Positions 20,768-39,613 of a stretch of 52,182 bases of DNA are shown here, piece by piece. Made by a program: the position numbers and the translations under genes. Numbering within the stretch: the first letter of the stretch is position 1; each line of letters begins with the position of its first letter. The DNA is from Thermoflexia bacterium (GTDB lineage: Bacteria > Chloroflexota > Anaerolineae > B4-G1 > DUEL01), in NCBI GenBank assembly GCA_011192125.1, contig DUEL01000012.1, positions 23,622-75,803 on the forward strand, read 5' to 3'. The notes under the pieces are model-generated. The model saw only the letters and a list, made by a program, of their open reading frames with translations, was not told the DNA's origin and did no database searches.

Positions 20768-20829
20768 CACCGTAAAGACACAGGGGGCACGAGATAGAGG
20801 GGTCTCTGTGCCCTCTGTGCCTCTGTGGT
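20768..20829. repeat. REP-like palindrome family A, copy 4
   Basis: accgtaaagacacagggggcac ... gtgccctctgtgcctctgtggt, just after era. Confidence 0.75.
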
Positions 20830-20857
20830 TTTCTATCACGGACGGAGGAAAGAGTCG

Positions 20858-21793
20858 ATGACCTCGACGGGGGATGTGCGGACGACCAGGATCCGCCGCG
20901 CTGCGCGGATGGCCCGGATCATCGACCGGCTGGAGCGGTTGGACGACGGGACGCTGGAGGAACTGGATCGGTTGACCCGGCAGGCGGTGTCGGGATCGGT
21001 GATGATGCCCGGAGAGGCCTCCCGGCGACGGTTCCTCAAAGCGGCGGTAGCCGGAGGGGCCATCATGGCTGTGACGGGTGGGTTGGCGGTCTGGCAGATG
21101 GGCTACGGCCGCCTGTCGGCGGAGGCGAACCGGCTGCGTGAGATCATCGCCCTGTACGAAGCGATGGAGGGGGTCGAACTGGACGGGCGGCTGGAAGAGG
21201 CCCTGGGGAGGCTGAGTGGGCTGGTCGGTGGGCTGCGGGAGAGCGCGGAGACCCTCCGTTCCGGTCTGGAGGCCGGCCGGGCCGCCCTCCTCGACTTCCA
21301 ATCCCGCTTCCCCTCCCTCCAGTCCGCCTTCCAATGGCTCCAGCAGACCCTCGCCAGCCTCTCCCAGCGGATGCTGGCGCTGGAGAACAGCGTCAACGAC
21401 CTGCTGGAGATCACCGGGCCGCTGGCGGAGACGATGGGGAGTTTCCTGCGCTGGATCTTGGACCACCTGCCAGGCTCCGCTGCCGATCGGGTGCGAGGTG
21501 GGTTGGAGCGGCTCGGCGAGGTCGTGACGATGTTGCCGGACCTGGTCGAAGGGCTCCACCAGCGGATCCTGGAGCCAATGGACGGATGGTTCAGTTCCCG
21601 TGCGGACACCAGCCTGGGGGTCGTTCTCGTTCAGCCTCTTCTCACCACCGTCTTCGATCCGGTCGAGTCGCTCCTCGACCGGATCGTCGAACTGGCGACA
21701 GCGTGGGATGAGGCACACCGGTCTCTTCAACAGGCCTTGGAGCAGAGGAGAATGATCCGCGCCCAGATCCTGGATGTCTTGAGCGACCTTTGA
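20858..21793 (+). CDS. hypothetical membrane-anchored all-helical/coiled-coil protein with internal twin-arginine motif
   Basis: SRRRFLK followed by a hydrophobic helix, then long amphipathic helices; SD GGAGG before ATG 20858. Confidence 0.7.
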   Translation: MTSTGDVRTTRIRRAARMARIIDRLERLDDGTLEELDRLTRQAVSGSVMMPGEASRRRFLKAAVAGGAIMAVTGGLAVWQMGYGRLSAEANRLREIIALYEAMEGVELDGRLEEALGRLSGLVGGLRESAETLRSGLEAGRAALLDFQSRFPSLQSAFQWLQQTLASLSQRMLALENSVNDLLEITGPLAETMGSFLRWILDHLPGSAADRVRGGLERLGEVVTMLPDLVEGLHQRILEPMDGWFSSRADTSLGVVLVQPLLTTVFDPVESLLDRIVELATAWDEAHRSLQQALEQRRMIRAQILDVLSDL

Positions 21794-21813
21794 TCCTCAT
21801 CGTGGGCGAAAAT

Positions 21814-21842
21814 TTGACACAACATCGGTGCTGTGGTAATAT
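21814..21842 (+). promoter_or_regulatory. sigma70 promoter upstream of the first response regulator
   Basis: TTGACA-N17-TAATAT with extended -10 TG, in an AT-rich intergenic region. Confidence 0.75.
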
Positions 21843-22037
21843 TTAACTCGGAATTTAATAGAAGAATAAGAGTAATGTAGTTCTGTTGTTTCCACTACCG
21901 ATACATCGGGGCCAGGGTTTCCGACTTGATGCTTCTCCGCGACTTCCCCGAGTTTTCTGGAGCCCTGGGCTGTTTTGTACAACGTGAGTGGGCAACTGCT
22001 AGGGTGTTCGGACTTACAGGGGTAGAGAGGGGGAGAG

Positions 22038-22742
22038 GTGCGTCGGCGGTTCCGCGTCCTCGCGATCGATGACCAACCCGATGTATTGAGGATGCTTGAA
22101 GTGATCCTGGGGTCGGAGGGCTTCGAGGTCGTCACGGCCCAGGACGCGCTTTCCGGCCTCCGCATGGCCTACCAGATGCATCCGGATGTGGTCCTTCTCG
22201 ACGTGGTGATGCCGGATGTGGATGGGTTCGAGGTCTGCCGGCGGCTGCGGGAGATGACCGACGTACCCATCATCTTCGTCACCGCCCGGGGGACGATCGA
22301 GGACGTGGTGCGTGGGTTCTCCCTGGGAGCGGACGACTACGTCGTCAAGCCGTTCGACCGTTCGGAACTGGTCAGTCGCCTCTTTGCCTGCCTGCGCCGG
22401 GCCAGCGAGCGGGAGGACCGGCAGCAGGAGGTCCTGTTCCCGGCCGCCTCGGTGATGCTGGATTGTGGCCGTCACGAACTGGTGATCGGCCATCGGACGG
22501 TGTATCTGACCCCCAAGGAGTTCGAAGTCCTCCGTCTCCTCATCCAGCACGCCGGTCGGGTCCTGAGCCCCGATGCCATCCTGACCCGGGTGTGGGGTCC
22601 GGAGCGGATCGGCGAACCGGACCTGGTGAAGCAATACATCTATCGGTTGCGGCGCAAGATCGAGCCGGATCCCAAGTCGCCCCGCTACATCCGCACCGTC
22701 CGCGGCAGCGGTTACTACTTTGAGGCCGAGGACCTTCTGTAG
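22038..22742 (+). CDS. OmpR/PhoB family response regulator
   Basis: Receiver IDD..LLDVVMP..DYVVKPF; wHTH LTPKEFEVL..YIRTVRGSGY. Confidence 0.93.
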   Translation: MRRRFRVLAIDDQPDVLRMLEVILGSEGFEVVTAQDALSGLRMAYQMHPDVVLLDVVMPDVDGFEVCRRLREMTDVPIIFVTARGTIEDVVRGFSLGADDYVVKPFDRSELVSRLFACLRRASEREDRQQEVLFPAASVMLDCGRHELVIGHRTVYLTPKEFEVLRLLIQHAGRVLSPDAILTRVWGPERIGEPDLVKQYIYRLRRKIEPDPKSPRYIRTVRGSGYYFEAEDLL

Positions 22743-22764: not shown

Positions 22765-22803
22765 AACCCCCTCCCAAGAGGAGGGGGTTTTTTGTTGTTT
22801 TTT
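22765..22803 (+). terminator. intrinsic terminator between the two response regulators
   Basis: aaccccctcc-caaga-ggagggggtt stem followed by a long T-rich tract. Confidence 0.85.
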
Positions 22804-22879
22804 GACCTTTCTTTCACCTAACCCATACGACGTTCTGGTATTTTAAGAATTACGAAACGCCTGATGTGGGAGGAGGCTG

Positions 22880-23614
22880 ATGAGGGAGACGGTGTTGGTG
22901 ATCGACGACGACCCGCAACTGTTGGGGTTGTTGCGGCTGACCCTGGAGCGAGAGGGATTCCGCGTCGTCACCGCCGAAAGTGGGGAGGAGGGGCTTCGCC
23001 GCGCGTATGAAGCGCGCCCCGATGCCATCGTCCTCGACATCATGATGCCGGAGATGGACGGATGGGCGGTCTGCCGGCGGCTCCGGGATGTGTGTGACGT
23101 TCCCATCCTGATCCTCTCCGCTCGGACGGAGACGGAATCGGTCATCAGGGGGTTCTCCCTGGGGGCCGACGACTACCTCAGCAAGCCCTGCAGTCTGGAG
23201 GAGCTGGTGTTCCGCATCCGGGCCATCCTTCGCCGGGCGCGGACCGACACCAAGGAGACGTGGCAAGAGGTGTACGACGACGGCACCCTGTACATCGATC
23301 TGGCAAACGGGAGGATCGAGCGGGAGGGAACCCCGATTCATCTCACCCCCACCGAACAGCGCCTCCTGACATACCTGGTCCGGCAGGAGGGGCGGGTCGT
23401 CCCTCACAGGGAGTTGCTTACCAACGTGTGGGGACCGGAATATGCGGAGGAGGTTGGATACCTGAGTGTCTATATCCGTTATCTGCGACGGAAGATCGAG
23501 GCGGATCCGTCGGCTCCCCGGTATATCCGTACGCGGTGGGGCATCGGTTACTACTTCGCGGGGAATCATCTTCTGGAGGAGGAGCAGTCGTTGAGGAGTG
23601 TACAGGATGAGTAA
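22880..23614 (+). CDS. OmpR/PhoB family response regulator
   Basis: IDDD..VLDIMMP..DYLSKPC; LTPTEQRLL..YIRTRWGIGY; SD GGAGG. Confidence 0.93.
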   Translation: MRETVLVIDDDPQLLGLLRLTLEREGFRVVTAESGEEGLRRAYEARPDAIVLDIMMPEMDGWAVCRRLRDVCDVPILILSARTETESVIRGFSLGADDYLSKPCSLEELVFRIRAILRRARTDTKETWQEVYDDGTLYIDLANGRIEREGTPIHLTPTEQRLLTYLVRQEGRVVPHRELLTNVWGPEYAEEVGYLSVYIRYLRRKIEADPSAPRYIRTRWGIGYYFAGNHLLEEEQSLRSVQDE

Positions 23615-25406
23615 ACGTTTCTGGTGGTATTGGGGGATCCTTCGCCGGTGGGGCTGGCTGCTGATGCTCAGCGTGCTCATCCCGGCGTTGGTTGCCGGTG
23701 TCCTCGTGTCCCGTCAGCCGGACTTCTATCGGGCAAAGGCCACGTTGATGGTTGGGACCAGCCTGCAGACCCCCAGTCCCGATCCCTGGCAGTTGACCAT
23801 CGCCAACAATCTGGCCAACGCTTACGCACGTCTGGCCCGGGAGGGGCCGGTGACGCAGGCGGTCATCGATCAGTTGGGCCTCGATCGGAGTACAAGCCAG
23901 CTGGCAGCCCAGATCACGACCCGGGTTTATCCAGAGGCGCAGTTGTTGGAGATCCAGGTGGTGGATCAGGATCCCAAACTGGCGGCGGCGATCGCCAACG
24001 CCATCGCCGAGGAACTGGTCCGGCGGAGTCCGGTTTCCCAGGAGGAGGAGCATCAGCGGCGGGAGTTCATCAAGGCTCAGTTGAGCGACCTGGAGGCGCG
24101 GATCGAACGGCTGAACGGGGAGATCGCTGACCTGCAGAACACGTTGCCGGAACTGACCTCGGCGGCGGAGTTGGAGGAGGCTCGGCGACGGTTGGAGCAG
24201 TTGGAGACGCTCAGAACTAACTATCAATCCACCTATGCCAACTTGCTCGACTCGCTTCAGGTGGAGGCACCCAACGCCCTCTCCATATTTGAGCCCGCCG
24301 CGGAGCCGACAACCCCTCTACCCCGTCGGACCGGGATGACGGTCGGCGCAGCGACGATCGCGGGGTTGGTGCTGGCGATCACCGGGGTGCTGGTCGTCGA
24401 GCGGCTGGACGACTCGGTCCGGTGGGAAGAAGTAGAGGAAGGGACGTTCCTTGATCGACCGGTGCTGGGGGCGATCCCTCGCATCAGGGTGGGCCGCGAT
24501 CGGTTGCTCTCCACCGTGCCGCTCCAGCCGGACGACCTGGAGGCACTGCGACATCTGCGGACCGCGCTGATGATGGAGTTAGGGGAGCGTTGGCCGGTTG
24601 TCGTGTTGGTCGCTGGGGCGGACGTCAAGGTTGGCAGGACCTTTATCACGGCCGGTCTGGGGAAGGCTTTGGCAGAGGCGGGATTGCGCACCCTCTTGGT
24701 CGATGGGAACCTCCGTTCCCCTGCGCTCCACGAGTGGTTTGATCAGCCCAACCTGGAGGGCCTGACCGAACTGTTGCAGGGCCAGAGGGATTTGACCGGT
24801 GCGTGGGACCTTGTTGAGGGGGTTCCCACCGGTGTGGACCGCCTTCACCTGCTGCCTGCGGGTCGGCCTGCGTCCGATCCGACGGTCCTGTTCGTCGGCG
24901 ACCGGTGGGCCGCGCTGTTGGAGGAACTGAAGAAGGGGGCCGACGTCGTCCTCATCGACACCCCTGCCGGTCTTACATCTCCCGAGGTCCTTCTCCTCGC
25001 CCGTCGGTGCGAGGGCGTCCTGGTGGTCTGCGGGCACCGGCGGACACGGTCTGCGTCCCTCTCGCAGATGCTCAAGTCGCTCGAGGAGCACGCCCCGAGG
25101 GTCCCGGCCTGGCTGGCGTTCAACCGGGTGCCTCGGCGGCAGCTCCGCCTTCACCCGACGCCCCAATGGGCGGCCGAACGAGCCCCGCTCGCTGAGCGGC
25201 CGACGCTGTCCGTCGGCGAGGCTGCGAAGGTCCTGGGGGTCCGTCCCGCTGTGGTCCGCCGCTGGTGCCGCACGGGACGACTGCAGGCGGAGCGTGTCCG
25301 ATGGCGCTGGATCATTCGACGGGAGGACCTGGAACGGCTCATGCCACCTGCGGAGGTCGCAGAGATCGAGAAGGCCCCTCAAACAGAGCCTGCTCCGTTA
25401 AGTTAA
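23607..25406 (+). CDS. Wzc/CpsCD-like polysaccharide co-polymerase with degenerate BY-kinase domain and C-terminal excisionase-type HTH
   Basis: TM-Wzz-coiled coil-TM, VLGAIP, EALRHLRT; Walker A GADVKVGRT; DGNLRSP; IDTPA; tail LSVGEAAKVLGVRPAVVRRWCRTGRLQA. Confidence 0.85.
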   Translation: MSKRFWWYWGILRRWGWLLMLSVLIPALVAGVLVSRQPDFYRAKATLMVGTSLQTPSPDPWQLTIANNLANAYARLAREGPVTQAVIDQLGLDRSTSQLAAQITTRVYPEAQLLEIQVVDQDPKLAAAIANAIAEELVRRSPVSQEEEHQRREFIKAQLSDLEARIERLNGEIADLQNTLPELTSAAELEEARRRLEQLETLRTNYQSTYANLLDSLQVEAPNALSIFEPAAEPTTPLPRRTGMTVGAATIAGLVLAITGVLVVERLDDSVRWEEVEEGTFLDRPVLGAIPRIRVGRDRLLSTVPLQPDDLEALRHLRTALMMELGERWPVVVLVAGADVKVGRTFITAGLGKALAEAGLRTLLVDGNLRSPALHEWFDQPNLEGLTELLQGQRDLTGAWDLVEGVPTGVDRLHLLPAGRPASDPTVLFVGDRWAALLEELKKGADVVLIDTPAGLTSPEVLLLARRCEGVLVVCGHRRTRSASLSQMLKSLEEHAPRVPAWLAFNRVPRRQLRLHPTPQWAAERAPLAERPTLSVGEAAKVLGVRPAVVRRWCRTGRLQAERVRWRWIIRREDLERLMPPAEVAEIEKAPQTEPAPLS

Positions 25407-25506
25407 GAACCAACCGCCCGGATTTTGGCGGACGTTGGCAACGATGACGCGTGCTTGTCGGATGTCAAGCCAGTCTTCCCCGGGCGGTTTATGATGGGAG
25501 GTAGGA

Positions 25507-26289
25507 GTGGTCGCATACGTTCGCGAGTTGGTTGCATACAGAGAACTTCTCTGGAGTTGGGTCGGCCGAGAGGTAAAGGTCCGTTACAAGCAGTCGTTGC
25601 TGGGGGCGGCCTGGGCCATCCTCCAGCCGCTTTCGGCTACCATCATTATGGCGGTGGTCTTCTCCTACTTCGTCCGTCTTCCGACCGGCGGGATCCCCTA
25701 TCCGATCTTCTACTACTCCGCCCTCCTGCCCTGGACCTTCACCGTCACTTCGATCACCCTGGGGACGGAAAGCCTGGTGCGCAATATGCATCTGGTGAGC
25801 AAGATCTACTTCCCTCGGGAGATTCTCCCCCTGGCCTCGGTGCTCGCCGGCCTGGTGGACCTCTCTATCGCCTCCGTGGTCTTCGTCCTGATGATGCTCT
25901 TCTACCGCTTTCCCCTGGGCCCGACCTTCGCCCTCGTCCCCCTGCTGCTTCTGATCCAGGTGCTGCTCACGAGCGGCGTGGTCCTCTTCGCCTCCGCGCT
26001 GAACGTCTTCTATCGGGACATCCGGTTCATCGTCCCGCTGGGGGTGCAGTTGTGGATGTACCTGACCCCCATTATCTACCCTGTGGATATGGTCCCGGAG
26101 CGGTTCCGAGCCCTCTATATGCTCAATCCGATGGCAGTGCTCATCGACGGGTACCGGCGGGTGATCCTCTACAGGGAGTGGATGGATCCCACGCAGTTGT
26201 TGGTGGCGGCGTCGATCTCCCTTGTGGTCTTCGTGCTGGCCTACGCCTACTTCAAGCGGGCGGAGGCGGTCTTTGCGGACGTCATATAG
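25507..26289 (+). CDS. wzm: polysaccharide ABC transporter permease Wzm
   Basis: KVRYKQSLLGAAWAILQPL, KIYFPRE, YRDI, YLTPIIYP and LNPM motifs. Confidence 0.92.
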   Translation: MVAYVRELVAYRELLWSWVGREVKVRYKQSLLGAAWAILQPLSATIIMAVVFSYFVRLPTGGIPYPIFYYSALLPWTFTVTSITLGTESLVRNMHLVSKIYFPREILPLASVLAGLVDLSIASVVFVLMMLFYRFPLGPTFALVPLLLLIQVLLTSGVVLFASALNVFYRDIRFIVPLGVQLWMYLTPIIYPVDMVPERFRALYMLNPMAVLIDGYRRVILYREWMDPTQLLVAASISLVVFVLAYAYFKRAEAVFADVI

Positions 26290-26306
26290 GGGAGGAGGGG
26301 CGCTGA

Positions 26307-27551
26307 ATGGCCGCGATCGAGTTTGAGAACGTGCGGAAGGCCTATCGCCGTCGGTTCGGACGGGGGAGCCTGCGGGACGCGCTGCCGAACCTGCTGGGCA
26401 GGGTGGTCGGGCGGGATGGGAAGGACCGAGGGGACTTGCTCTGGGCGCTGGACGGGGTGAGTTTTGAGGTCGAGAAGGGGGAGGTGCTGGGCATCATCGG
26501 CCCCAACGGGGCGGGGAAGACAACCGTCCTGAAACTCCTCTCCCGGGTCACCCGCCCCACCAGCGGGCGGATCACGGTGCGTGGCAGGGTATCGGCCCTC
26601 ATCGAGCTGGGCGCTGGCTTCCATCCCGACCTGAGCGGGCGGGAGAACATCTACCTCAACGGCGCTATCCTGGGGCTGAAGCGGCGGGAGATCGACGAGA
26701 AGTTCGACAGTATCGTCGCCTTCTCCGAACTGGAGGAGTTCATCGATATGCCGGTCAAGCGGTACTCCTCCGGCATGTTCGTCCGGCTGGGCTTCGCCGT
26801 GGCGGTCCACGTGGATCCGGACGTGCTCCTTATCGACGAGGTGCTGGCGGTGGGCGACTATATGTTCCGCGATAAATGCGTCCAGCGGATCCAGGAGTTC
26901 CGGGATGCCGGCAAGACGATGGTAGTGGTCTCCCACAACAAGGAAATGATCCAGAAGTTGTGCGATCGGACCCTGTTCCTCTACAAGGGCAAGGTGATGT
27001 TCCTGGGGGAGACCCAGAAGGCGCTGGACCTGTACCACACCGGCTTCGCTGGCGAGGCGCTGCGGCGGGAGGTGGAGGGGCGGGGGGACGGCGGTCGGGA
27101 GATAGAGATCACGCGGGTGGAACTGCTCGACGGGGAGGGGAAGCCCCGCAACTCCTTCCTGACGGCGGAGCCGATGCGGCTGCGCATCTATTTTCGCACC
27201 AACGCGTCGGTGGACGATCCCGTTTTCTACTCCCGCATCCGTCAGGGATATCGCGTCCTCCACGGCACTACGACGGCCCGATTCGACATCCGGGGCCACT
27301 TCGAGCCGGGGGACGAGGGGGTCGCCGAGGTCCTTTACGAGAGCCTGAACCTCCTCAACGGGGAGTACAACATCAACGTGGGGATCAAACGGGACCATTT
27401 CTCCCCGTTGACCTATGATCAGATCGACGGGGCCGTTCACTTCGTGGTGGGCTCCCGGTTCGATCAGGGAGGAGCGTTGGTCTACCTGCCGCATCGATGG
27501 AGTGTGCGGGGAGCAAGAGAGCAAGGGGGCAAGGGGGCGGAGGCTGTATGA
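26307..27551 (+). CDS. wzt: polysaccharide ABC transporter ATPase Wzt with C-terminal carbohydrate-binding domain
   Basis: GPNGAGKTT, YSSGM, IDEVLAVGD, plus a ~150-aa C-terminal beta-rich Wzt_C-like region. Confidence 0.93.
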   Translation: MAAIEFENVRKAYRRRFGRGSLRDALPNLLGRVVGRDGKDRGDLLWALDGVSFEVEKGEVLGIIGPNGAGKTTVLKLLSRVTRPTSGRITVRGRVSALIELGAGFHPDLSGRENIYLNGAILGLKRREIDEKFDSIVAFSELEEFIDMPVKRYSSGMFVRLGFAVAVHVDPDVLLIDEVLAVGDYMFRDKCVQRIQEFRDAGKTMVVVSHNKEMIQKLCDRTLFLYKGKVMFLGETQKALDLYHTGFAGEALRREVEGRGDGGREIEITRVELLDGEGKPRNSFLTAEPMRLRIYFRTNASVDDPVFYSRIRQGYRVLHGTTTARFDIRGHFEPGDEGVAEVLYESLNLLNGEYNINVGIKRDHFSPLTYDQIDGAVHFVVGSRFDQGGALVYLPHRWSVRGAREQGGKGAEAV

Positions 27552-29188
27552 GGAAGACGTTGGTGTTGAGCATCGATAGCGGTTGTTGGGAGTATCTGGA
27601 CCCCCTGTTGGCGGCGGGGCGGATGCCGAACGTCGCCCGTCTGCTCGATAGGGGTGCGCGGGGTATCCTGGAATCGACGATGCCCCCCATCACGCCGGTG
27701 GCCTTTTCCTCCTTCATCACCGGGGTCAATCCGGGCAAGCACGGCGTCTTCGACTGGTCGCTCCACCACGGGGACGGCACGAGAGGGATGGTCAACGCTG
27801 CGGCCTTGAGGGCCGTTCCCTTCTGGACCTATCTGAACCATAAGGGGATCCGGGTGGGGCTGTTCAACGTTCCTCTCACCTACCCCCCGCGCCCGCTCGA
27901 CGGGTTCGTCGTGCCGGGGATCCCGGTCCCCCACACCGCTCGCCGCCTTACCTACCCCCCAGAGGTGCTGAATCAGTTGGAGGACCGGTTCGGCCCCTAT
28001 CGAGTGGACGTGGACCGCGGCCTCCTGAACGAGGGCATCGATGCCTACCTCCAGGCGTGGATCAAGTACGAGGCGGTCCAGACCGAGGCCGCGTTGATGC
28101 TGATGGAGATGTATGCGGTCGACCTGCTGGTCCTCAACTACGCTTCGCTGGACCGAGTGAACCACTTCGCGCCGGAGATGGAGTCCATAGAGCAGGTGCT
28201 GAGCAACATCGATGCGCAGATCGGCCGCTTCTTGGAGCGGTACCCCGACGCCAACTACATCCTGATGTCCGACCACGGCTCCCGGCGCGTACGGACCGCT
28301 TTTCTGCTGGGGCCGTGGCTGGTTCAGCACGGCTACGCTGCCTATGGCGAGTATTCGCTGGACATCCCTCCCTATGAGGTCAACTTCGCCCTGGCCCGCT
28401 ACTTGCGGGGGAGGGGGATGCAGGGCACAGAGGAGCGGTTCGTGCGGGGGGTGCTCCGCTTGCTGCTCAGGATGGCACCCGCTCCGCTGCGGCGTCGCTT
28501 CTGGGAGTCGGCCTATCGGTCCGTACCGGGGGCGCTGGCCTACCGGTTCACCGAGCGGCTGGATTGGGCCCGGACGAAGGTCTTCGCAACGTCCAACAGC
28601 GGTCCCCTTTTGATCAACACGGGGATGGGGAACGGCAGGGGGGCGGTCTCCCCCGGGGAGTACGAGAGGGTGCGCGAATCGTTGATCCGCGACCTCCTCG
28701 CCGTCCGCGATCCCCAGGGTCGTCCCGTCTTCTCCCGAGTGTACCGGCGGGAGGAGATCTACCACGGGCCTGCCCTCGCCAGCGGGCCCGACGTGATCGC
28801 CGATCACTACGAGTCCGACTGTGACGTCGTGGTGGACAACAAGCCGGGCCAGTTCTGTTTCCTCGACCGGCTCGGCCGGTTCGGCGACCACACCCGCAGG
28901 GGGATCCTGGTGGTGAGCGGACCGGATTTCGTGCAGCGCCCCCCGGTCAACCCGGCGCACGCCTCCATCCTCGATCTGCCCGCCACGCTGCTCCATCTCT
29001 ACGGCGTGCCGGTGCCGCAGGAGTGGGACGGGCAGGTCCTGCGGGGGCTGCTAGCGCCGCCCCTCGCCGAGCGGGGGGTCGTTCGGGTGAAGACGGCTGC
29101 GCTGGACGGGGGGACGGGGGAGAAGGGGTACAGCGCGGACGAAGAGGCGCAGGTGATGGAGCATCTGCGGGACCTGGGGTATCTGTGA
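27548..29188 (+). CDS. alkaline phosphatase superfamily (nucleotide pyrophosphatase/phosphodiesterase-like) protein
   Basis: LSID, STMPPIT, TGVNPGKHGVFD, MSDHG, DH and C-terminal HLRDLGYL. Confidence 0.85.
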   Translation: MRKTLVLSIDSGCWEYLDPLLAAGRMPNVARLLDRGARGILESTMPPITPVAFSSFITGVNPGKHGVFDWSLHHGDGTRGMVNAAALRAVPFWTYLNHKGIRVGLFNVPLTYPPRPLDGFVVPGIPVPHTARRLTYPPEVLNQLEDRFGPYRVDVDRGLLNEGIDAYLQAWIKYEAVQTEAALMLMEMYAVDLLVLNYASLDRVNHFAPEMESIEQVLSNIDAQIGRFLERYPDANYILMSDHGSRRVRTAFLLGPWLVQHGYAAYGEYSLDIPPYEVNFALARYLRGRGMQGTEERFVRGVLRLLLRMAPAPLRRRFWESAYRSVPGALAYRFTERLDWARTKVFATSNSGPLLINTGMGNGRGAVSPGEYERVRESLIRDLLAVRDPQGRPVFSRVYRREEIYHGPALASGPDVIADHYESDCDVVVDNKPGQFCFLDRLGRFGDHTRRGILVVSGPDFVQRPPVNPAHASILDLPATLLHLYGVPVPQEWDGQVLRGLLAPPLAERGVVRVKTAALDGGTGEKGYSADEEAQVMEHLRDLGYL

Positions 29189-31161: not shown

Positions 31162-33018
31162 ATGCCAGGGCTGGTCGGATTCGTCGGTGAAGTACCTCCA
31201 GCGGAGGCGGAGCAGCGCCTCCGGGAGATGGCGCGGCGGCTGATGGCGCGGGAGACGGATCGGATAGACCTGTACCTTGAGAGGGGGATCGGATTGGGGC
31301 GTGTTGCCCTGGGGACCGTCGCCCGGGAACCCCAGCCGATCTGGAACGAGGACCGTTCCCTCTGCGTCGTGATGGAGGGGGAGGTCTACGACTACGCCGA
31401 TGAGAAGCGTCGTCTGGTCGAAAAAGGCCATCGTTTCCGCACCGAGAGCGATGCCGAGTACCTGCTTCACCTGTACGAGGAGTACGGCGAGGATTTCGCG
31501 CTGCGGCTCAACGGCCCCTTCGTGGCGGCGATCTGGTCGCCCGGGGAGCGCCGTCTGCTGGTGGTCAACGACCGGTGGGGACTGCAGCCCCTCTTCTACG
31601 CTCAGGTCGACGGACGGTTGCTCATCGCCAGCGGGGCGCGGGCCATTCTGGCCGATCCGGCCTACGCCCCTCGGGTGGACCTCAACGGGTTGGCGGAGTT
31701 CCTCACCTTTGAGCATGTGCTGGAGGATCGAACCCTTTTCGAGGGCATTCGGCTTCTGCCGCCCGCCTCGGTGCTGGCCTTCGGGGAGGGCCGACTGGCG
31801 ATCCGGCCCTACTGGGAGTTCCAGTTCGTTGAGGAATACGAGGACCGCTCTGAGGGGTGGTACGTCGAGGGGTTGATCCATCACCTCCGGCAGGCTGTCC
31901 GGCGGTGCCGCCGAGGCGACGGGCCGGAGGGAGTGTTGCTGAGCGGGGGGATGGACTCGCGGGCGGTCCTGGCGGCGATGGACGGGGCGCGGGGGAACGT
32001 GCACACCTTCACCTTTGGCACCCCCGGTTGTGACGACGTCCGGTTGGCGCGGGAGGTGGCGGCCAGGGTAGGGACCCACCACCATTTCGTCCCCCTCCGG
32101 CCGGAGGATCTGCCTCGGATGGTGGAGGAAGGGGTGTGGTTGAGCGATGGGCTGAAGAGCGCGGTCCATATGCACGTCCTCGCTGCCCTGCCTGAGGCCG
32201 CCCGCTGGGTGCGGGTGGTCTACACCGGCTCGCTGGGGGATTCCATCATGGGACAGCACCTCTGCCGCATGCTGATGGACATCCATCCCGAGGATGTGTT
32301 ACTCCGGATGTTGTTCCGGCATTACGCCACGGCTTTCTCGGAGGAGGAAGCGGCGCGATTGCTGGCTCCTGCGGTCTACCGGCAGGTTCGGGGGGTGCCC
32401 TTTGAAACCTTCCGGTGTGCGTTGCAGGCGTCCCACGCGACGCTTTCGGCCAACCGGCGGGAGCAGTACTCCATCCGGCAGAACGAGCGTCGCTGGATCC
32501 TGGAGGGGCAACGGCTGCTGCGGAGCCAGTTGGTCGTGCGCACCCCTTTCTACGACGTCGATCTGGTGGACTTCATGGTCCGCGTGCCCCCTGGCCTGCG
32601 GTTGGAGGGGTATCTGTACCGGCAGGCTTTCGCCGTCGCCTTCCCCGACCTGGCGAAGGTCCCTCTGGAAAAGACAGGAGAGCCCCTGGTGCCCTGTATG
32701 CGTGGGGTGCTGATTCGTCTTCGGCAGCAACTCCGCTGGTGGCTGCATACAACCGGGCTGCGCTTCATCTCGCCGCCGCGCCGCTGCCATTACGCCGACT
32801 ACAACGGCTGGATGCGCACGGTGCTCCGTCCCTGGGTCGAGGAGGTCCTTCTGAGCGATCGGTCGCTGGATCGGGGGCTCTTTAACCCGGAGGCCGTTCG
32901 CGATTTGGTGGAGGAGCATATGTCCGGTGTGGACCACGCTCGAAAGCTGGGCGTGCTACTGACGTTCGAGTTGTGGTGTCGGCAGTTCTTGGATGGAGAT
33001 GGAGAGGTGGGACGATGA
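31162..33018 (+). CDS. asparagine synthetase B-like amidoligase lacking the N-terminal catalytic Cys
   Basis: Starts MPGLVG; QPIWNED, GEVYD, SDAE, DRWGLQPLFY, LSGGMDSR and RTPFYD motifs. Confidence 0.87.
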   Translation: MPGLVGFVGEVPPAEAEQRLREMARRLMARETDRIDLYLERGIGLGRVALGTVAREPQPIWNEDRSLCVVMEGEVYDYADEKRRLVEKGHRFRTESDAEYLLHLYEEYGEDFALRLNGPFVAAIWSPGERRLLVVNDRWGLQPLFYAQVDGRLLIASGARAILADPAYAPRVDLNGLAEFLTFEHVLEDRTLFEGIRLLPPASVLAFGEGRLAIRPYWEFQFVEEYEDRSEGWYVEGLIHHLRQAVRRCRRGDGPEGVLLSGGMDSRAVLAAMDGARGNVHTFTFGTPGCDDVRLAREVAARVGTHHHFVPLRPEDLPRMVEEGVWLSDGLKSAVHMHVLAALPEAARWVRVVYTGSLGDSIMGQHLCRMLMDIHPEDVLLRMLFRHYATAFSEEEAARLLAPAVYRQVRGVPFETFRCALQASHATLSANRREQYSIRQNERRWILEGQRLLRSQLVVRTPFYDVDLVDFMVRVPPGLRLEGYLYRQAFAVAFPDLAKVPLEKTGEPLVPCMRGVLIRLRQQLRWWLHTTGLRFISPPRRCHYADYNGWMRTVLRPWVEEVLLSDRSLDRGLFNPEAVRDLVEEHMSGVDHARKLGVLLTFELWCRQFLDGDGEVGR

Positions 33019-34013
33019 TCATCTCGCGCACTCCCTTGCGGATCAGTTTCGTCGGCGGGGGTTCGGACCTGCCCGCCTTCTACGAGCGGGAACCCGGCGC
33101 GGTCGTCAGCACGGCGATCAACAAGTACATCTACATCACCGTTAACCGAAAGTTCGACAACAAGATCCGTGCCAGTTACTCCCGCACCGAGATCGTGGAC
33201 AGCGTGGAGGAACTGCGGCACGAGTTGATCCGTGAGGCCCTGAGGATGACGGGTATCGATCGGGCGATCGAGATCACCTCGATCTCCGACATCCCCTCGA
33301 GAGGTACGGGGTTGGGTTCCTCCAGCACCTACACCGTGGGTCTGTTGAACGCGCTCTATGCCCATCGAGGGCGGATGGTGGGTGCGGAGCGGTTGGCGAA
33401 GGAGGCATGTGAGATCGAGATCGAGCGGTGCAGGAAGCCCATCGGCAAACAGGACCAGTACATCGCGGCCTATGGGGGGCTGAAGTATATCCGCTTCTAC
33501 CCCGGCGGCGAGGTCGAAGTGACCCCCATCCTCTGCGCGCCCCAGACCCGGCGGGAGTTGCAGCGGCGGCTCCTGATGCTCTACACCGGCCTCACCCGCC
33601 GCGCCGACGACATTCTGGCCGAGCAGTCCCGCAACTGTGTGATGGACGAGACGAAACGGAACAGCCTCCGCAGGATGGTCCACCTCGCCGAACAGATGGT
33701 GGAGGCGTTGAGCCGGAACGAACTGGATGGCTTCGGAGAGGTGCTGCACGCCAACTGGCTGGAGAAGCAGCGGCTGGCCAGTGGGATCACCAACCCGGAC
33801 ATCGATCGGTGGTACGAGGCGGCGCGGGCACACGGGGCCATCGGGGGGAAGATTCTGGGCGCGGGCGGCGGCGGGTTCCTCCTGCTCTACGCTCCCCCGG
33901 AGCGGCACGAGGAGATCTGCCGCGCCCTGCCCGAACTGCGGGCGATCCCCTTCCGCTTTGAGCCGCAGGGGAGCCGGATCATCTACGTCGAGGAGAACGG
34001 GTATGTCCCCTGA
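33015..34013 (+). CDS. hddA: GHMP kinase, D-glycero-alpha-D-manno-heptose-7-phosphate kinase-like
   Basis: MIISRTPLRISFVGGGSD, GTGLGSSS, GKQDQY, GGKILGAGGGG. Confidence 0.85.
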   Translation: MIISRTPLRISFVGGGSDLPAFYEREPGAVVSTAINKYIYITVNRKFDNKIRASYSRTEIVDSVEELRHELIREALRMTGIDRAIEITSISDIPSRGTGLGSSSTYTVGLLNALYAHRGRMVGAERLAKEACEIEIERCRKPIGKQDQYIAAYGGLKYIRFYPGGEVEVTPILCAPQTRRELQRRLLMLYTGLTRRADDILAEQSRNCVMDETKRNSLRRMVHLAEQMVEALSRNELDGFGEVLHANWLEKQRLASGITNPDIDRWYEAARAHGAIGGKILGAGGGGFLLLYAPPERHEEICRALPELRAIPFRFEPQGSRIIYVEENGYVP

Positions 34014-38360: not shown

Positions 38361-39575
38361 GTGAGGAAGGTCGGCATTGCCTTCGGCGCGGTGGTACTGG
38401 TCGGGTTGCTCCTCTTGGTCGGCCTGGAGGTCGCCGCCCGCACCCTCCATTGGTGGCCCGACCCGCTCTTCCAGCCCGACGAGCGGTTCGGCGTCTTCCA
38501 CATCCCCAACGCTGAAGGATGGTGGGTCAACATCGACGTGCCCGACGAGTTTCAGACCTATGTCCGCATCAACTCGAAGGGGCTGCGAGATCGAGAGTAC
38601 CCCTACGAGAAGCCGCCGGGGACCTTTCGTATCCTGGTGCTGGGTGATTCCTACGCCGACGCGCTGGAGGTGCCGCTGGAGGACTCTTTCCAGGAGGTGC
38701 TGGAGGTCCGGTTGAACGAACGGTTGGATCAGCCGGTCGAGGTGATCAACGGCGGGGTGTGGGGGTACGGCAACGATCAGGAACTGCTCTTCTACCGGCT
38801 GGAGGGGCGGAAGTACCAGCCCGACCTGGTCCTCCTGGCCTTCCAGCCCAACAGCGACGTGCTGGAGAACCACCGAGAGATGGAGACCCGCTATATGGGG
38901 CGGGAGTACAAGCCCTTCTTCGTGCTCGGGGAGGAGGGGGAACTGGAACTGGTGAACTTCCCCTTCCGTCCCGAACCGGAGCCGCCGCCGCGGAACGGGC
39001 TGGAGCGGGTCAAGCGGTTCCTCGCCGCTAACTCCCGCGCCTATCCGGTTGTCTCCCGCTTCATCAAAGCACGACTGCGGGGGGTCGCTACGTGGCTGCG
39101 GGAGATCGGAGTGATGGACCCGCCCCAGGGCGAGACCGTCGCCGGAGGGATCCCGATGGGGATGTACCTCTACGCCGCCGACTACCCGCCCGAGTGGGAA
39201 GAGGCGTGGGCCGTCACGAAGGCGATCATCACCCAGTTGAGGCAGGAGGTGGAGGCGGACGGGGCCCGGCTGGTCGTGGTCATCCTTCCCGACCGTCATT
39301 TGGTGGAGGGCGACTACCTGGCCTGGGCGCTGCGCACCTACCCGGCGATGCAGGGGAAGGAGTGGGACCTGGATAAGCCGAATCGGATGATGCGGGAGTT
39401 CCTGGAAGAGCAGGGGATCCCATACCTGGAGATGGTCGAAGAGTTTCGCCAGCGTGCTGAGGAGACCGGCCGGCCTCTGTACTACCCCAGGGATGGCCAC
39501 TGGAACGTGGAAGGGCACCGTTTGGCCGGGGATCTGATCGCCGACTGGCTCGTGGAGCGGTCGTTGGTGCGGTGA
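38361..39575 (+). CDS. membrane-anchored SGNH/GDSL hydrolase-like protein (possible polysaccharide O-acetyltransferase/esterase)
   Basis: N-terminal TM, NSKGLRD, LGDSY, GVWGYG, DGHWNVEGH. Confidence 0.85.
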   Translation: MRKVGIAFGAVVLVGLLLLVGLEVAARTLHWWPDPLFQPDERFGVFHIPNAEGWWVNIDVPDEFQTYVRINSKGLRDREYPYEKPPGTFRILVLGDSYADALEVPLEDSFQEVLEVRLNERLDQPVEVINGGVWGYGNDQELLFYRLEGRKYQPDLVLLAFQPNSDVLENHREMETRYMGREYKPFFVLGEEGELELVNFPFRPEPEPPPRNGLERVKRFLAANSRAYPVVSRFIKARLRGVATWLREIGVMDPPQGETVAGGIPMGMYLYAADYPPEWEEAWAVTKAIITQLRQEVEADGARLVVVILPDRHLVEGDYLAWALRTYPAMQGKEWDLDKPNRMMREFLEEQGIPYLEMVEEFRQRAEETGRPLYYPRDGHWNVEGHRLAGDLIADWLVERSLVR

Positions 39576-39613
39576 ATGGGTGGCTGGGTGGCAGGGTGAC
39601 TAAAGGAGTTAGG

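What the first reader, a model, noticed from the sequence alone, without database searches (positions are those of the whole stretch)
23607..25406. Wzc-like pseudokinase whose tyrosine cluster is replaced by an excisionase-type HTH
Seen: full TM-Wzz-TM-kinase architecture, but Walker A is GADVKVGRT (GKS/T Lys -> Arg), Walker A' is DGNLR (DxD -> DxN), no Tyr occurs in the cytoplasmic C-terminal region, and the protein ends in a MerR-like/HTH_17 domain (about 25204-25340). Established: BY-kinases need the Walker Lys and a C-terminal Tyr cluster for autophosphorylation. Inference: a catalytically dead co-polymerase repurposed as a membrane-tethered nucleic-acid-binding protein, coupling glycan export to transcription or to chromosome position. 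I know of no characterised example of this fusion.
Basis: partly seen in the sequence, partly recalled or inferred. Interest (0 to 1): 0.78.

Follow-up and report, generated by a model that had tools for sequence, protein, structure and literature searches.

The report
Degenerate Wzc-like co-polymerase with DNA-binding tail
This gene encodes a membrane polysaccharide co-polymerase whose tyrosine-kinase part has lost its key lysine and all target tyrosines but keeps a small DNA-binding domain at its end, and it belongs to a widespread, so far undescribed Chloroflexota family in which most members still have a normal-looking kinase and tyrosine cluster in front of that same domain.

Summary
ORF 23607-25406 (599 aa) has the architecture TM, Wzz-like domain, TM, BY-kinase-like domain, flexible linker, HTH_17/excisionase-type winged helix. 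Walker A is GADVKVGRT and Walker A' is DGNLR. None of the 333 cytoplasmic residues is a tyrosine.

It is not an artefact. Of 255 complete homologues, 92 carry the same C-terminal HTH. Contigs from 4 runs show no indel. dN/dS against the closest DNA relative is 0.19.

The HTH does not replace the tyrosine cluster. In 63 of 92 HTH-bearing homologues a Tyr cluster sits between the kinase domain and the HTH, and 87 of 92 keep the Walker lysine. Loss of the lysine is no more frequent with the HTH (5 of 92) than without it (12 of 163).

On the tree the window's lineage lies inside the HTH clade. Under the chosen rooting it lost the Tyr cluster first, then changed Lys to Arg.

The HTH folds like BldC, RacA and Xis, which are DNA-binding domains. 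A sister lineage adds an RNA-polymerase alpha-CTD after it. The gene is usually paired with an OmpR-type response regulator.

Verdict: a new variant of a known kind, namely a fused BY pseudokinase/PCP-2 with a DNA-binding tail. DNA binding and its target are inferred, not shown.

The parts
23607..25406 (+). Whole gene: PCP-2a-like co-polymerase + degenerate BY-kinase domain + HTH_17 (599 aa, P0001). An alternative GTG start lies at 23598. The start overlaps the stop of the upstream response-regulator gene.
23652..23711 (+). TM helix 1 (about residues 16-35)
   Evidence: Hydrophobic stretch; it lies within AF2 helix 3-35.
23712..24332 (+). Extracytoplasmic Wzz/PCP-like domain with a long helical hairpin (residues 36-242). 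It is the most conserved part of the family.
   Evidence: TIGR01006 E 1.9e-12; TIGR03007; 41-90% identity across the family; dN/dS 0.11.
24333..24404 (+). TM helix 2 (residues 243-266)
   Evidence: AF2 helix 242-267
24507..25091 (+). BY-kinase-like P-loop domain (residues 301-495), degenerate
   Evidence: BY-kinase models, all below cut-off; Wzc, BceF, CapAB, Etk, VpsO by sequence; 3la6 TMt 0.78; 3bfv 0.84.
24540..24560 (+). EALRHLR (E312-x2-R315-x2-R318), matching the EX2RX2R motif. The motif's name and its role in the ring interface are recalled, not tested.
   Evidence: The motif is conserved in most listed relatives; in A1 R318 is not invariant but the consensus is AExxRxLR.
24615..24641 (+). 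Walker A, GADVKVGRT: Arg344 in place of the P-loop Lys
   Evidence: Only P0001-P0005 among the 92 HTH-bearing homologues have Arg.
24702..24716 (+). Walker A', DGNLR (Asn368 in place of the second Asp)
   Evidence: Asn is found here in 8 of 92 HTH-bearing and 25 of 163 other homologues, so it is not specific to the degenerate clade.
24945..24965 (+). Walker B, VVLIDTP (Asp451 retained; invariant in A1)
25092..25205 (+). Linker (residues 496-533). This is where relatives carry the Tyr cluster and a basic stretch. Here it has no Tyr and is Arg/Pro-rich.
   Evidence: AF2 pLDDT is below 50 at residues 516-525.
25206..25343 (+). HTH_17 / excisionase-type winged helix-turn-helix (residues 534-579)
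   Evidence: E 4e-10; TIGR01764 above cut-off; Pukovnik Xis 4j2n E 0.004; BldC 6amk E 0.0097; Foldseek: BldC-DNA 6ama/6amk, RacA-DNA 5i44, Xis 4j2n; TMt 0.6-0.83, rmsd 1.1-2.7.
22880..23614 (+). OmpR-type response regulator RR2, with an intact receiver. A relative lies upstream of the fusion gene in 20 of the 72 loci, directly adjacent in most of these.
22038..22742 (+). OmpR-type response regulator RR1, often conserved upstream of RR2
22765..22799 (+). Terminator-like hairpin and T-run after RR1, so RR2 and the fusion gene look like a separate transcription unit
22802..22819 (+). Conserved direct-repeat box (TTGACC / TTCACC, 11-bp period) upstream of RR2. It is a candidate regulator-binding site; which protein binds it is unknown.
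   Evidence: also seen in L016, L020, L022, L023, L028, L046; 7 of the 17 upstream regions read; 1 site in the window, 0.03 expected.
25507..27551 (+). Wzm (ABC-2 permease, 25507-26289) and Wzt (ABC ATPase with Wzt_C, 26307-27551) directly downstream. The gene sits at the head of a large glycan-synthesis cluster.

Best explanation
The gene encodes a monotopic-ring-type polysaccharide co-polymerase (PCP-2a/Wzc architecture). It belongs to a Chloroflexota-wide family in which the BY-kinase domain is followed by a Tyr cluster, a basic linker and an Xis/BldC/RacA-like winged HTH.

In the window's small lineage (P0001-P0005, at least 77% identical) the phosphorylation machinery was dismantled in two steps. 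First the Tyr cluster was lost; its sisters P0006-P0011 share that loss but keep GKT. Then the P-loop Lys became Arg. The window protein additionally has DxN in Walker A'. The order assumes the rooting chosen.

The protein is therefore most likely a fused BY pseudokinase. It keeps the PCP domain, the kinase fold, Walker B and the EX2RX2R-type oligomerisation motif. It would act as a phosphorylation-independent scaffold for glycan polymerisation and export, as proposed for EcpK and HfsB.

The HTH hangs on a roughly 40-residue flexible linker under the ring and binds DNA. In the canonical relatives, autophosphorylation of the Tyr cluster next to the basic linker and HTH would change ring assembly and local charge, and so gate DNA binding. 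In the window's lineage that gate is gone and the tether would be constitutive, or controlled by other inputs such as the co-transcribed OmpR-type regulator.

Shown: the architecture, the motif states, the family distribution, the nesting on the tree, purifying selection, the fold similarities and the synteny. Inferred: loss of kinase activity, oligomerisation, DNA binding and its gating, and the biological output (transcriptional control of the cluster, or anchoring of DNA at the export site).
For: Architecture and motifs.

Family: 77 of 120 and 18 of 150 listed homologues carry the HTH. All 57 members of A1 hit HTH_17 at E<=1e-4.

Motif census of 255 complete homologues:
- With HTH (92): 63 have Lys and a Tyr cluster, 24 have Lys and fewer than 3 Tyr, 5 have Arg and no cluster.
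- Without HTH (163): 151 have Lys, 12 do not (8 of them Arg).
- 16 of the 17 proteins without the Lys also lack a Tyr cluster.

Tree on residues 1-495, with the HTH columns left out. P0001-P0005 form a clade (support 99). It lies inside P0001-P0006 (100), inside a 9-row clade with P0007, P0008 and P0011 (98), inside an 11-row clade that adds P0009 and P0010 (100). All of these have at most 1 Tyr in the linker.

Purifying selection against L016: dN/dS is 0.19 overall, 0.27 for the kinase-like domain and 0.25 for the HTH.

HTH fold: BldC-DNA, RacA-DNA and Xis are the top Foldseek hits, and Xis and BldC are the top sequence hits in the PDB. A second DNA- or transcription-related module, RNA_pol_A_CTD at 30.5 bits (cut-off 23.8), follows the HTH in P0013. 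P0014 has the same tail and the same precomputed Pfam label.

Synteny: an RR2 relative lies upstream in 20 of 72 loci: L016-L029, L037, L046, L060, L062 and L068. It is directly adjacent in most, and 2.7 kb or more away in L025, L026 and L029.

BY pseudokinases acting as scaffolds are described in PMC12004946 (abstract and passages read).

The genome still has a canonical split CapA/CapB-type BY-kinase and an LMW-PTP. Tyrosine signalling as such is therefore not lost.
Against: No biochemical data exist. Arg in place of the P-loop Lys may still allow nucleotide binding (general knowledge of P-loop mutants, recalled), so 'dead' is inferred from motifs only. The Asn in Walker A' also occurs in relatives with an intact Lys, so on its own it is weak evidence of inactivity.

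No DNA target was found. The only conserved non-coding box nearby looks like a response-regulator site and cannot be assigned to the HTH.

Foldseek E-values for the 74-residue HTH model are modest (best 3.8e-3, none at or below 1e-3), and its mean pLDDT is 73.6.

The tree is a FastTree run with local supports and several long branches. The outgroup was chosen by me, so gain or loss is read from nesting and was not tested with an AU test.

The Tyr-cluster criterion (at least 3 Tyr in 12 residues) is my own threshold.
Confidence: 0.65

Rival explanations
1. The HTH_17 domain is a protein-docking module rather than a DNA binder. It might recruit the neighbouring OmpR-type regulator, RNA polymerase or a glycosyltransferase to the co-polymerase ring. 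The family would then couple export to regulation by sequestering a protein, not by touching DNA.
For: The pairing with RR2 is conserved and apparently translationally coupled. RR2 and RR1 are more conserved than the fusion protein itself: in L017, RR1 is 82% and RR2 71% identical against 52% for the fusion protein. In P0013 and P0014 an alpha-CTD-like domain follows the HTH; that domain is also known as a protein-contact module (recalled).
Against: All the nearest solved folds are DNA-bound wHTH domains. The recognition-helix region is strongly conserved and basic: consensus T-A-R-R-W-C, with W553 invariant and C554, G557 and A561 nearly invariant. In most relatives a poly-basic stretch precedes the HTH.
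Confidence: 0.18
2. The protein is still an active P-loop enzyme. With Arg in Walker A it binds and slowly hydrolyses ATP, and either phosphorylates other proteins on tyrosine or uses the nucleotide state, ParA/MinD-like, to control oligomerisation and DNA association.
For: Walker B Asp451 and the first Walker A' Asp366 are retained. The other four members of the GRT clade keep DGDLR. Lys to Arg recurs independently in Chloroflexota homologues: 13 of the 17 proteins without the Lys have Arg, which suggests Arg is a tolerated or selected state rather than random decay. The kinase-like domain is under purifying selection (dN/dS 0.27). NCBIfam holds a 'KGGVGR-motif variant AAA ATPase' model, to which the domain is weakly similar (41.5 bits against a cut-off of 90).
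Against: The P-loop Lys is the residue mutated to make inactive Wzc and CapB (the K540M and K55M entries). In 16 of the 17 homologues without the Lys, its loss goes with loss of the Tyr cluster, as expected if kinase function was given up. The Ser/Pro start of the Walker A loop (S-P-x) is also changed, to G-A. The match is below the cut-off of every BY-kinase model.
Confidence: 0.12
3. One reading: the HTH was acquired in place of the Tyr cluster, as part of converting a dead kinase into a DNA-binding protein, so degeneration and HTH go together.
For: In the window protein itself the HTH lies where a C-terminal tail would be, and there is no Tyr cluster.
Against: 63 of 92 HTH-bearing homologues have both a Tyr cluster and the HTH, and 87 of 92 keep the Lys. 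Degeneration is not enriched among them: 5 of 92 against 12 of 163. The degenerate clade is nested inside HTH-bearing clades with intact motifs.
Confidence: 0.04
4. Assembly or frameshift artefact joining a PCP/kinase gene to a separate small excisionase-like gene.
For: None found.
Against: The same architecture occurs in 92 independent protein clusters and in loci from many MAGs. Contigs of 4 runs show no indels or joints, and one contig bridges the junction. The frame is continuous and under purifying selection across the linker.
Confidence: 0.01

Closest known systems
Wzc / Etk / BceF-type PCP-2a BY-kinases (E. coli Wzc structures 7nhr, 9r62, 3la6)
   Same: The TM, PCP domain, TM, P-loop kinase domain architecture and fold are shared. 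Walker B and an EX2RX2R-type motif are present. The gene sits in a glycan-synthesis cluster.
   Different: Walker A has Arg in place of Lys, and Walker A' is DxN. There is no Tyr cluster and no cytoplasmic Tyr at all. The extracytoplasmic domain is much shorter, about 200 aa. A winged HTH is added at the C-terminus. The gene is next to Wzm/Wzt ABC-transporter genes rather than Wza/Wzb. The score is below all BY-kinase model cut-offs.
BY pseudokinases EcpK (Myxococcus xanthus) and HfsB (Caulobacter), and the fused PCP-2 + pseudokinase variants cited from Cuthbertson et al. 2009 (PMC12004946, abstract and passages read)
   Same: The BYK fold is present without the catalytic lysine and without phosphorylatable C-terminal tyrosines. 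The proposed role is a phosphorylation-independent scaffold for a PCP-2. EcpK also ends in a basic, Tyr-free C-terminus.
   Different: EcpK lacks all three Walker motifs and is a stand-alone protein; here only Walker A and A' are altered and the domain is fused to its PCP. None of those proteins is reported with a DNA-binding domain: a term search of that paper gave 0 hits for 'helix-turn-helix' and 'DNA-binding'. Cuthbertson et al. itself was not read.
BldC (Streptomyces), RacA (Bacillus subtilis) and phage/ICE excisionases (Xis): small MerR-like winged HTH proteins
   Same: These are the best sequence and fold matches of the C-terminal domain. HTH_17 and TIGR01764 score above their cut-offs.
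   Different: Those are small soluble proteins, or in RacA a soluble protein with a coiled coil. Here the domain is the C-terminal appendage of an integral-membrane co-polymerase. Head-to-tail multimerisation on DNA repeats (BldC, Xis) and chromosome anchoring (RacA) are recalled properties and were not tested here.
CpsD-ParB link in Streptococcus pneumoniae (PMC4574921, abstract and passages read)
   Same: A BY-kinase of a capsule machine is connected to a DNA-bound protein, with the kinase's phosphorylation state modulating the link. This is a precedent for coupling glycan export to the chromosome.
   Different: CpsD itself did not bind DNA in that study, and the link is through a separate protein, ParB. 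Here a DNA-binding-type domain is part of the same polypeptide.
Membrane-anchored one-component regulators of the ToxR/CadC type (recalled, no call)
   Same: A DNA-binding domain is tethered to the cytoplasmic face of a bitopic or polytopic membrane protein.
   Different: Those carry an N-terminal OmpR-type wHTH and a periplasmic sensor. Here a C-terminal Xis-type wHTH follows a co-polymerase/kinase module.

Membership tests
BY-kinase (TIGR01007 eps_fam / Wzc NF008568) | Model score above the curated cut-off | tested here: not met
   TIGR01007 80.3 bits against 108.05; NF008568 81.3 against 1068; TIGR03018 87.8 against 230.65.
BY-kinase | Walker A GxxxxGK[ST] with the P-loop lysine | tested here: not met
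   the motif is GADVKVGRT, with Arg344.
BY-kinase | Walker A' hhhhDxDxR | tested here: not met
   LLVDGNLR, so the second Asp is Asn. The same Asn occurs in 33 of 255 homologues, including some with an intact Lys.
BY-kinase | Walker B hhhhDxxP | tested here: met
   VVLIDTP. Asp451 is invariant in A1.
BY-kinase | C-terminal tyrosine cluster (autophosphorylation sites) | tested here: not met
   0 Tyr in residues 267-599.
BY-kinase | P-loop kinase fold with an EX2RX2R oligomerisation motif | tested here: met
   3la6 TMt 0.78, CapAB 0.81-0.89. EALRHLR at residues 312-318. The motif definition is recalled.
BY-kinase | Tyrosine autophosphorylation activity | not testable with these tools
   This needs an in vitro kinase assay.
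BY pseudokinase / phosphorylation-independent PCP-2 (as defined in PMC12004946) | [quoted passage not shown] | tested here: met
   The definition is taken from the abstract of PMC12004946.
BY pseudokinase / phosphorylation-independent PCP-2 | Functions with, and binds, a PCP-2 transmembrane/periplasmic part | tested here: met
   It is fused in one polypeptide to the TM, PCP, TM part. Functional dependence was not tested.
PCP (Wzz, PF02706 / TIGR01006) | Two TM helices flanking a helical extracytoplasmic domain; model match | tested here: inconclusive
   The fold and topology are met. Pfam Wzz scores 15 bits against 25.5, and TIGR01006 47.2 against 296.
HTH_17 / excisionase-family DNA-binding domain (PF12728, TIGR01764) | Model score above the curated cut-off | tested here: met
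   40.2 bits against 27; 32.6 against 28.8.
HTH_17 / excisionase-family DNA-binding domain | Winged-helix fold of Xis/BldC/MerR N-domain type | tested here: met
   the secondary structure is strand, helix, helix, two-strand wing, helix. Best hits are BldC, RacA and Xis, with TMt 0.57-0.83. E-values are only 4e-3 to 1e-2.
HTH_17 / excisionase-family DNA-binding domain | Binds DNA | not testable with these tools
   This needs EMSA, DAP-seq or ChIP.
KGGVGR-motif variant AAA ATPase (NF047398) | Model score above cut-off, and the KGGVGR signature | tested here: not met
   41.5 bits against 90. The loop reads DVKVGRT, with no KGG.

The most novel reading that the evidence does not exclude
Chloroflexota possess a direct line from the polysaccharide export machine to DNA. 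A Wzc-type co-polymerase ring carries, right after its autophosphorylated Tyr cluster and a basic linker, up to eight Xis/BldC/RacA-like winged HTH domains.

The phosphotyrosine and oligomeric state of the machine would then gate DNA binding, either for transcription of the glycan cluster or for anchoring of a chromosomal locus at the export site, without any diffusible messenger.

The window's lineage would be a natural 'locked' version in which the kinase switch (Tyr cluster, then P-loop Lys) was removed while the DNA tether was kept.
Probability: 0.3. Interest if true: 0.8.

Novelty: new variant of a known kind. Interest (0 to 1): 0.58.

Why it matters
BY-kinases are thought to regulate glycan polymerisation through cycles of ring assembly driven by Tyr-cluster phosphorylation. 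They are thought to reach gene expression or the chromosome only indirectly, by phosphorylating regulators or, for CpsD, through ParB.

A whole family in which the kinase's Tyr cluster is immediately followed by a DNA-binding-type domain would be a compact system for testing whether bacterial phosphotyrosine can gate DNA binding in cis. Within that family there are natural variants that lost first the Tyr cluster and then the catalytic Lys. They offer a ready-made series (active; Tyr-less; Tyr-less and Lys-less) for asking what a BY pseudokinase still does.

The family also flags a mis-annotation. Sources name these proteins either 'helix-turn-helix domain-containing protein' or 'tyrosine autokinase', and for the window's clade neither name describes the protein.

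Tried and rejected
- **Complex prediction.** The cytoplasmic part (267-599, alignment A1) was folded with the neighbouring regulator RR2 (A2). The score was 0.00 and the verdict 'no answer', so it counts neither for nor against binding.
- **Wrong frame.** This PDB sequence search used 25183 instead of 25182 as its start. The output is meaningless and was repeated correctly.
- **First motif and HTH classifiers.** My regular-expression HTH label missed true HTH bearers such as P0009, P0010 and P0027. The regular-expression Walker A finder misfired on several rows. Both were replaced by an HMM built from A1 and alignment columns. The HTH 'changes' count printed should be ignored; only the topology around P0001 is used.
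- **Phylum-wide genome search with the whole protein (68 of 301 genomes hit).** Matches end near residue 490-516 because the linker is variable. It therefore does not report HTH presence and gives no census of the fusion.
- **Operator hunt.** The only conserved non-coding box cannot be assigned to the HTH.
- **RNA evidence.** No RNA holder was listed.
- **Earlier findings of this scan.** Nothing relevant.
- **'KGGVGR' literature search.** One irrelevant hit.
- **Assembly artefact.** Rejected (and the family evidence).
- **Membership in the KGGVGR variant ATPase family.** Rejected.


Full report
**1. Observation**

The ORF at 23607-25406 (+) reads through without a stop to 599 residues. A GTG at 23598 is an alternative start, and the ORF overlaps the stop of the upstream gene.

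Pfam finds HTH_17 at residues 534-579 (E 4e-10, 40.2 bits, cut-off 27) and a weak Wzz match at 9-90. NCBIfam finds BY-kinase models over residues 301-495, all below their cut-offs (TIGR01007 80.3 against 108.05). It also finds the excisionase-family DNA-binding domain TIGR01764 above its cut-off (32.6 against 28.8).

- Walker A is GADVKVGRT (337-345).
- Walker A' is DGNLR (366-370).
- Walker B is VVLIDTP (447-453).

All six tyrosines of the protein lie at or before residue 210. The cytoplasmic part, residues 267-599, has 0 Tyr in 333 residues.

An AF2 model of the whole protein was built on an alignment of 57 family members (mean pLDDT 84.3). It shows two long TM helices, a helical extracytoplasmic domain, a Rossmann-like P-loop domain, a disordered stretch (516-525, pLDDT below 50) and a small strand-helix-helix-wing-helix domain. 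Foldseek matches it to full-length Wzc (9r62 E 2e-29; 7nhr E 1e-24). The kinase domain matches 3la6, CapAB, Etk and BceF, and sequence search of the PDB agrees.

**2. Not an artefact**

Contigs of four public runs from three studies lie on 23500-25500 with no inserted or deleted letters and no joints. Two of the runs may be the source of this DNA. A contig from a run not flagged as a source bridges 24732-25265, from the end of the kinase domain into the HTH.

Against the closest relative for which DNA was fetched (L016, 77% identical), dN/dS is 0.19 overall. By part it is 0.11 for the extracytoplasmic domain, 0.27 for the kinase-like domain, 0.10 for the linker and 0.25 for the HTH. The gene is maintained by selection in all its parts.

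**3. What family it belongs to**

A search of 5.8 billion clustered proteins listed 120 homologues. A word-index-free search of 1.84 billion 50%-identity representatives listed 150. I built an HMM from the HTH columns of alignment A1. With it, 77 of the 120 and 18 of the 150 carry the C-terminal HTH, 92 proteins in all. The 77 agree with the precomputed Pfam labels. All 57 members of A1 match Pfam HTH_17 at E<=1e-4.

Where sources give names, these are Chloroflexi, Anaerolineae or Anaerolineales MAG proteins called either 'helix-turn-helix domain-containing protein' or 'polysaccharide biosynthesis tyrosine autokinase'.

A scan of one genome per species returned 72 loci. Nearly all are from Chloroflexota: Anaerolineae, Caldilineae, Thermoflexales and Chloroflexia. 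Records labelled Caldilinea aerophila are among them. That scan used a peptide pattern from the extracytoplasmic domain, so it is not a census of the fusion.

**4. The key test: does kinase degeneration go with the HTH?**

I aligned all 264 homologues and read the motif columns. Nine truncated rows were set aside.

| Group | Walker A Lys, Tyr cluster | Walker A Lys, fewer than 3 Tyr | No Lys |
|---|---|---|---|
| With HTH (92) | 63 | 24 | 5 (all Arg, no cluster) |
| Without HTH (163) | 124 | 27 | 12 (8 Arg) |

A Tyr cluster here means at least 3 Tyr within 12 residues between the kinase domain and the HTH. That threshold is my own.

Loss of the lysine is thus 5 of 92 with the HTH against 12 of 163 without it, so there is no enrichment.

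In the canonical HTH-bearing members the order along the chain is fixed. The last kinase strand (…FNRV…) comes first. Then comes the Tyr cluster (for example S-S-Y-G-Y-L-Y-G-Y-G-Y-Y or G-Y-Y-Y-Y-G-Y-G), then a run of Arg/Lys, then the HTH. The HTH is therefore an addition after the Tyr cluster and does not replace it.

In 16 of the 17 homologues without the Lys the Tyr cluster is also missing. That is the pattern expected if kinase function was abandoned as a whole.

**5. Order of events**

A FastTree on residues 1-495, with the HTH columns left out, puts the window protein in a 5-row clade (P0001-P0005, support 99) in which all members have G-R-T. That clade lies inside a 6-row clade with P0006 (100). 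This lies inside a 9-row clade with P0007, P0008 and P0011 (98), and that inside an 11-row clade that adds P0009 and P0010 (100).

All eleven have at most 1 Tyr in the linker, yet P0006-P0011 keep G-K-T. The next clades out have both the cluster and the Lys.

Read with the chosen outgroup, the order is: HTH present, then Tyr cluster lost, then Lys changed to Arg. The window protein alone within its clade also has Asn in Walker A'; the other four have D-G-D-L-R. That Asn is common elsewhere (33 of 255 homologues) and is not diagnostic.

Caveats: this is a quick tree with long branches, the root was my choice, and no AU test was run. The HTH labels printed came from a faulty regular expression and should be ignored.

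**6. What is retained**

- Walker B Asp451 is invariant in A1.
- An E-x2-R-x2-R motif (EALRHLR, 312-318) is conserved through most of the family. Its role in the BY-kinase ring interface is recalled, not tested.
- The extracytoplasmic domain is the best-conserved part (41-90% identity across the family).

The picture is a co-polymerase that keeps its PCP function and probably its oligomeric scaffold but has given up autophosphorylation.

This matches the concept of BY pseudokinases: EcpK of Myxococcus, HfsB of Caulobacter, and fused PCP-2 variants cited from Cuthbertson et al. They are proposed to act as phosphorylation-independent scaffolds (PMC12004946; abstract and passages read). That paper has no occurrence of 'helix-turn-helix' or 'DNA-binding'.

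The genome itself still encodes a canonical split CapA/CapB-type pair on another contig. The kinase there has G-E-G-K-S-T, D-A-D-L-R and a short Y-Y tail. An LMW-PTP is also present.

**7. The HTH**

By sequence, the best solved relatives are mycobacteriophage Pukovnik Xis (4j2n, E 0.004) and Streptomyces BldC (6amk, E 0.0097).

A separate AF2 model of residues 526-599 (pLDDT 86-91 over the core, mean 73.6) was searched with Foldseek. The best matches are:
- BldC bound to DNA (6ama, 6amk);
- the RacA DNA-binding domain bound to DNA (5i44);
- Xis (4j2n, 1y6u);
- MerR-family N-domains.

TM scores normalised to the target are 0.57-0.83 and rmsd is 1.1-2.7 Å. E-values are only 4e-3 or worse, as expected for about 50 aligned residues.

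The recognition-helix region is strongly conserved and basic across the family (consensus …T-A-R-R-W-C-x-x-G-R-L-P-A…). W553 is invariant and C554, G557, A561 and W568 are nearly invariant.

Independent support for a nucleic-acid or transcription role comes from a sister lineage. P0013 (689 aa) carries an RNA-polymerase alpha C-terminal-domain-like module after the HTH (PF03118, 30.5 bits against 23.8). P0014 has the same tail and the same precomputed Pfam label.

DNA binding itself is inferred.

**8. Context**

The gene heads a large glycan cluster. It contains Wzm and Wzt (with Wzt_C), two type-I phosphodiesterase-family proteins, GT4 and GT2 transferases, an asparagine-synthase-like protein, a GHMP kinase, an AlgX/SGNH-like protein, a Wzy_C-type protein and a 1444-aa FG-GAP/Ig-like protein.

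Upstream lie two OmpR-type response regulators with intact receiver residues. No histidine kinase lies next to them. After RR1 there is a terminator-like hairpin (22765-22789 plus a T-run). RR2 and the fusion gene overlap, so they look like one unit.

An RR2 relative lies upstream of the fusion gene in 20 of the 72 loci (L016-L029, L037, L046, L060, L062, L068). It is directly adjacent in most, and 2.7 kb or more away in L025, L026 and L029. RR2 identity (52-87%) is often higher than that of the fusion protein (36-77%). In the Caldilineae-type loci a GHMP kinase is the conserved neighbour instead.

A direct-repeat box (TTGACC…TTCACC, 11-bp period) at 22802-22819 recurs upstream of RR2 in 7 of the 17 upstream regions read. 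It is unique in the window and nearly so in the genome. By analogy (recalled) it looks like an OmpR/PhoB-type site, and I cannot assign it to the HTH.

**9. Mechanism proposed**

Most likely, the window protein is a fused BY pseudokinase/PCP-2a that scaffolds polymerisation and export without phosphotyrosine cycling. It presents Xis/BldC/RacA-like HTH domains on flexible linkers beneath the membrane, where they bind DNA.

In canonical relatives the Tyr cluster lies between the kinase and a basic linker plus HTH. Autophosphorylation, which adds negative charge and in Wzc controls ring assembly, is then well placed to gate DNA binding. In the window's lineage this gate has been removed.

Two outputs are possible and I cannot separate them. 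One is transcriptional control of the cluster, together with or against the adjacent response regulators, as BldC does. The other is anchoring of DNA at the envelope machine, as RacA does or as in the CpsD-ParB link (PMC4574921, abstract and passages read).

My confidence is high for steps 1-6 (architecture, family, order of losses). It is moderate for DNA binding and low for the specific output.

**10. Novelty**

BY pseudokinases and fused PCP-2 pseudokinase variants are known. The Xis-type HTH is a known fold. Three full-text searches and a term search of two reviews or analyses (PMC9800525 and PMC4007543) found no description of a BY-kinase or PCP fused to a DNA-binding domain. Supplements were closed and subscription-journal papers are not covered.

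I therefore rate it a new variant of a known kind. What lifts it above a routine annotation is the family as a whole (kinase, Tyr cluster, basic linker, HTH) and the natural degeneration series within it.

Noticed in passing
window 22802-22819 (also L016, L020, L022, L023, L028, L046, upstream of their RR2 genes): A conserved direct-repeat box, TTGACC-N5-TTCACC (11-bp period), lies about 31 nt upstream of a TGnTATTTT -10-like element. It was seen in 7 of the 17 RR2 upstream regions read. There is one copy in the window and, at up to 3 mismatches, only one further site in the genome. It looks like an OmpR/PhoB-type regulator site (recalled analogy).
   Followed up: partly
P0013 and P0014 (homologues, 689 aa), residues about 621-680: After the HTH_17, P0013 carries an extra RNA polymerase alpha C-terminal-domain-like module (PF03118, above cut-off). 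P0014 has the same tail and the same precomputed label. This is a second DNA- or transcription-related domain at the same C-terminus.
   Followed up: partly
homologues P0051, P0090, P0116, P0136, P0191, P0206, P0247, P0256 (no HTH): The Walker A Lys has been replaced by Arg repeatedly in Chloroflexota BY-kinase homologues that lack the HTH. In each case the Tyr cluster is also absent. This suggests pseudokinase forms arise repeatedly, with Arg as the favoured replacement.
   Followed up: partly
own genome G000:C121 (locus L001 758-1414 and 1447-2112) and G000:C95:32854-33270: A canonical split CapA-like modulator plus CapB-like BY-kinase (intact Walker motifs, short YY tail) and a low-molecular-weight phosphotyrosine phosphatase are encoded elsewhere in the same genome.
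   Followed up: partly
window 21805-21880: An AT-rich island in a 66% GC genome lies upstream of RR1. It has a near-consensus promoter (TTGACA, 17 nt spacer, TAATAT with an upstream TG; 10 of 12 positions match).
   Followed up: no
window 32973-34013 and loci L030, L031, L039, L043-L045, L047-L049, L052: A GHMP-family kinase is very strongly conserved (66-90% identity, more than the fusion protein). In Caldilineae-type loci it sits directly upstream of the fusion gene, in the place of the response regulators.
   Followed up: no
window 39572-43906: A 1444-aa protein with nine FG-GAP-like repeats and Big_1/invasin-type Ig domains lies inside the glycan cluster. It is possibly a surface-associated protein.
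   Followed up: no
window 20825-21793: A 322-aa ORF has no clear family (a weak MbeD/MobD-like hit below cut-off). It is conserved at 74% identity upstream of RR1 in L016 only.
   Followed up: no
window 27497-29188 and 50343-52016: The same cluster holds two type-I phosphodiesterase/nucleotide-pyrophosphatase-family genes. The first is conserved next to Wzt in L016, L025 and L060.
   Followed up: no
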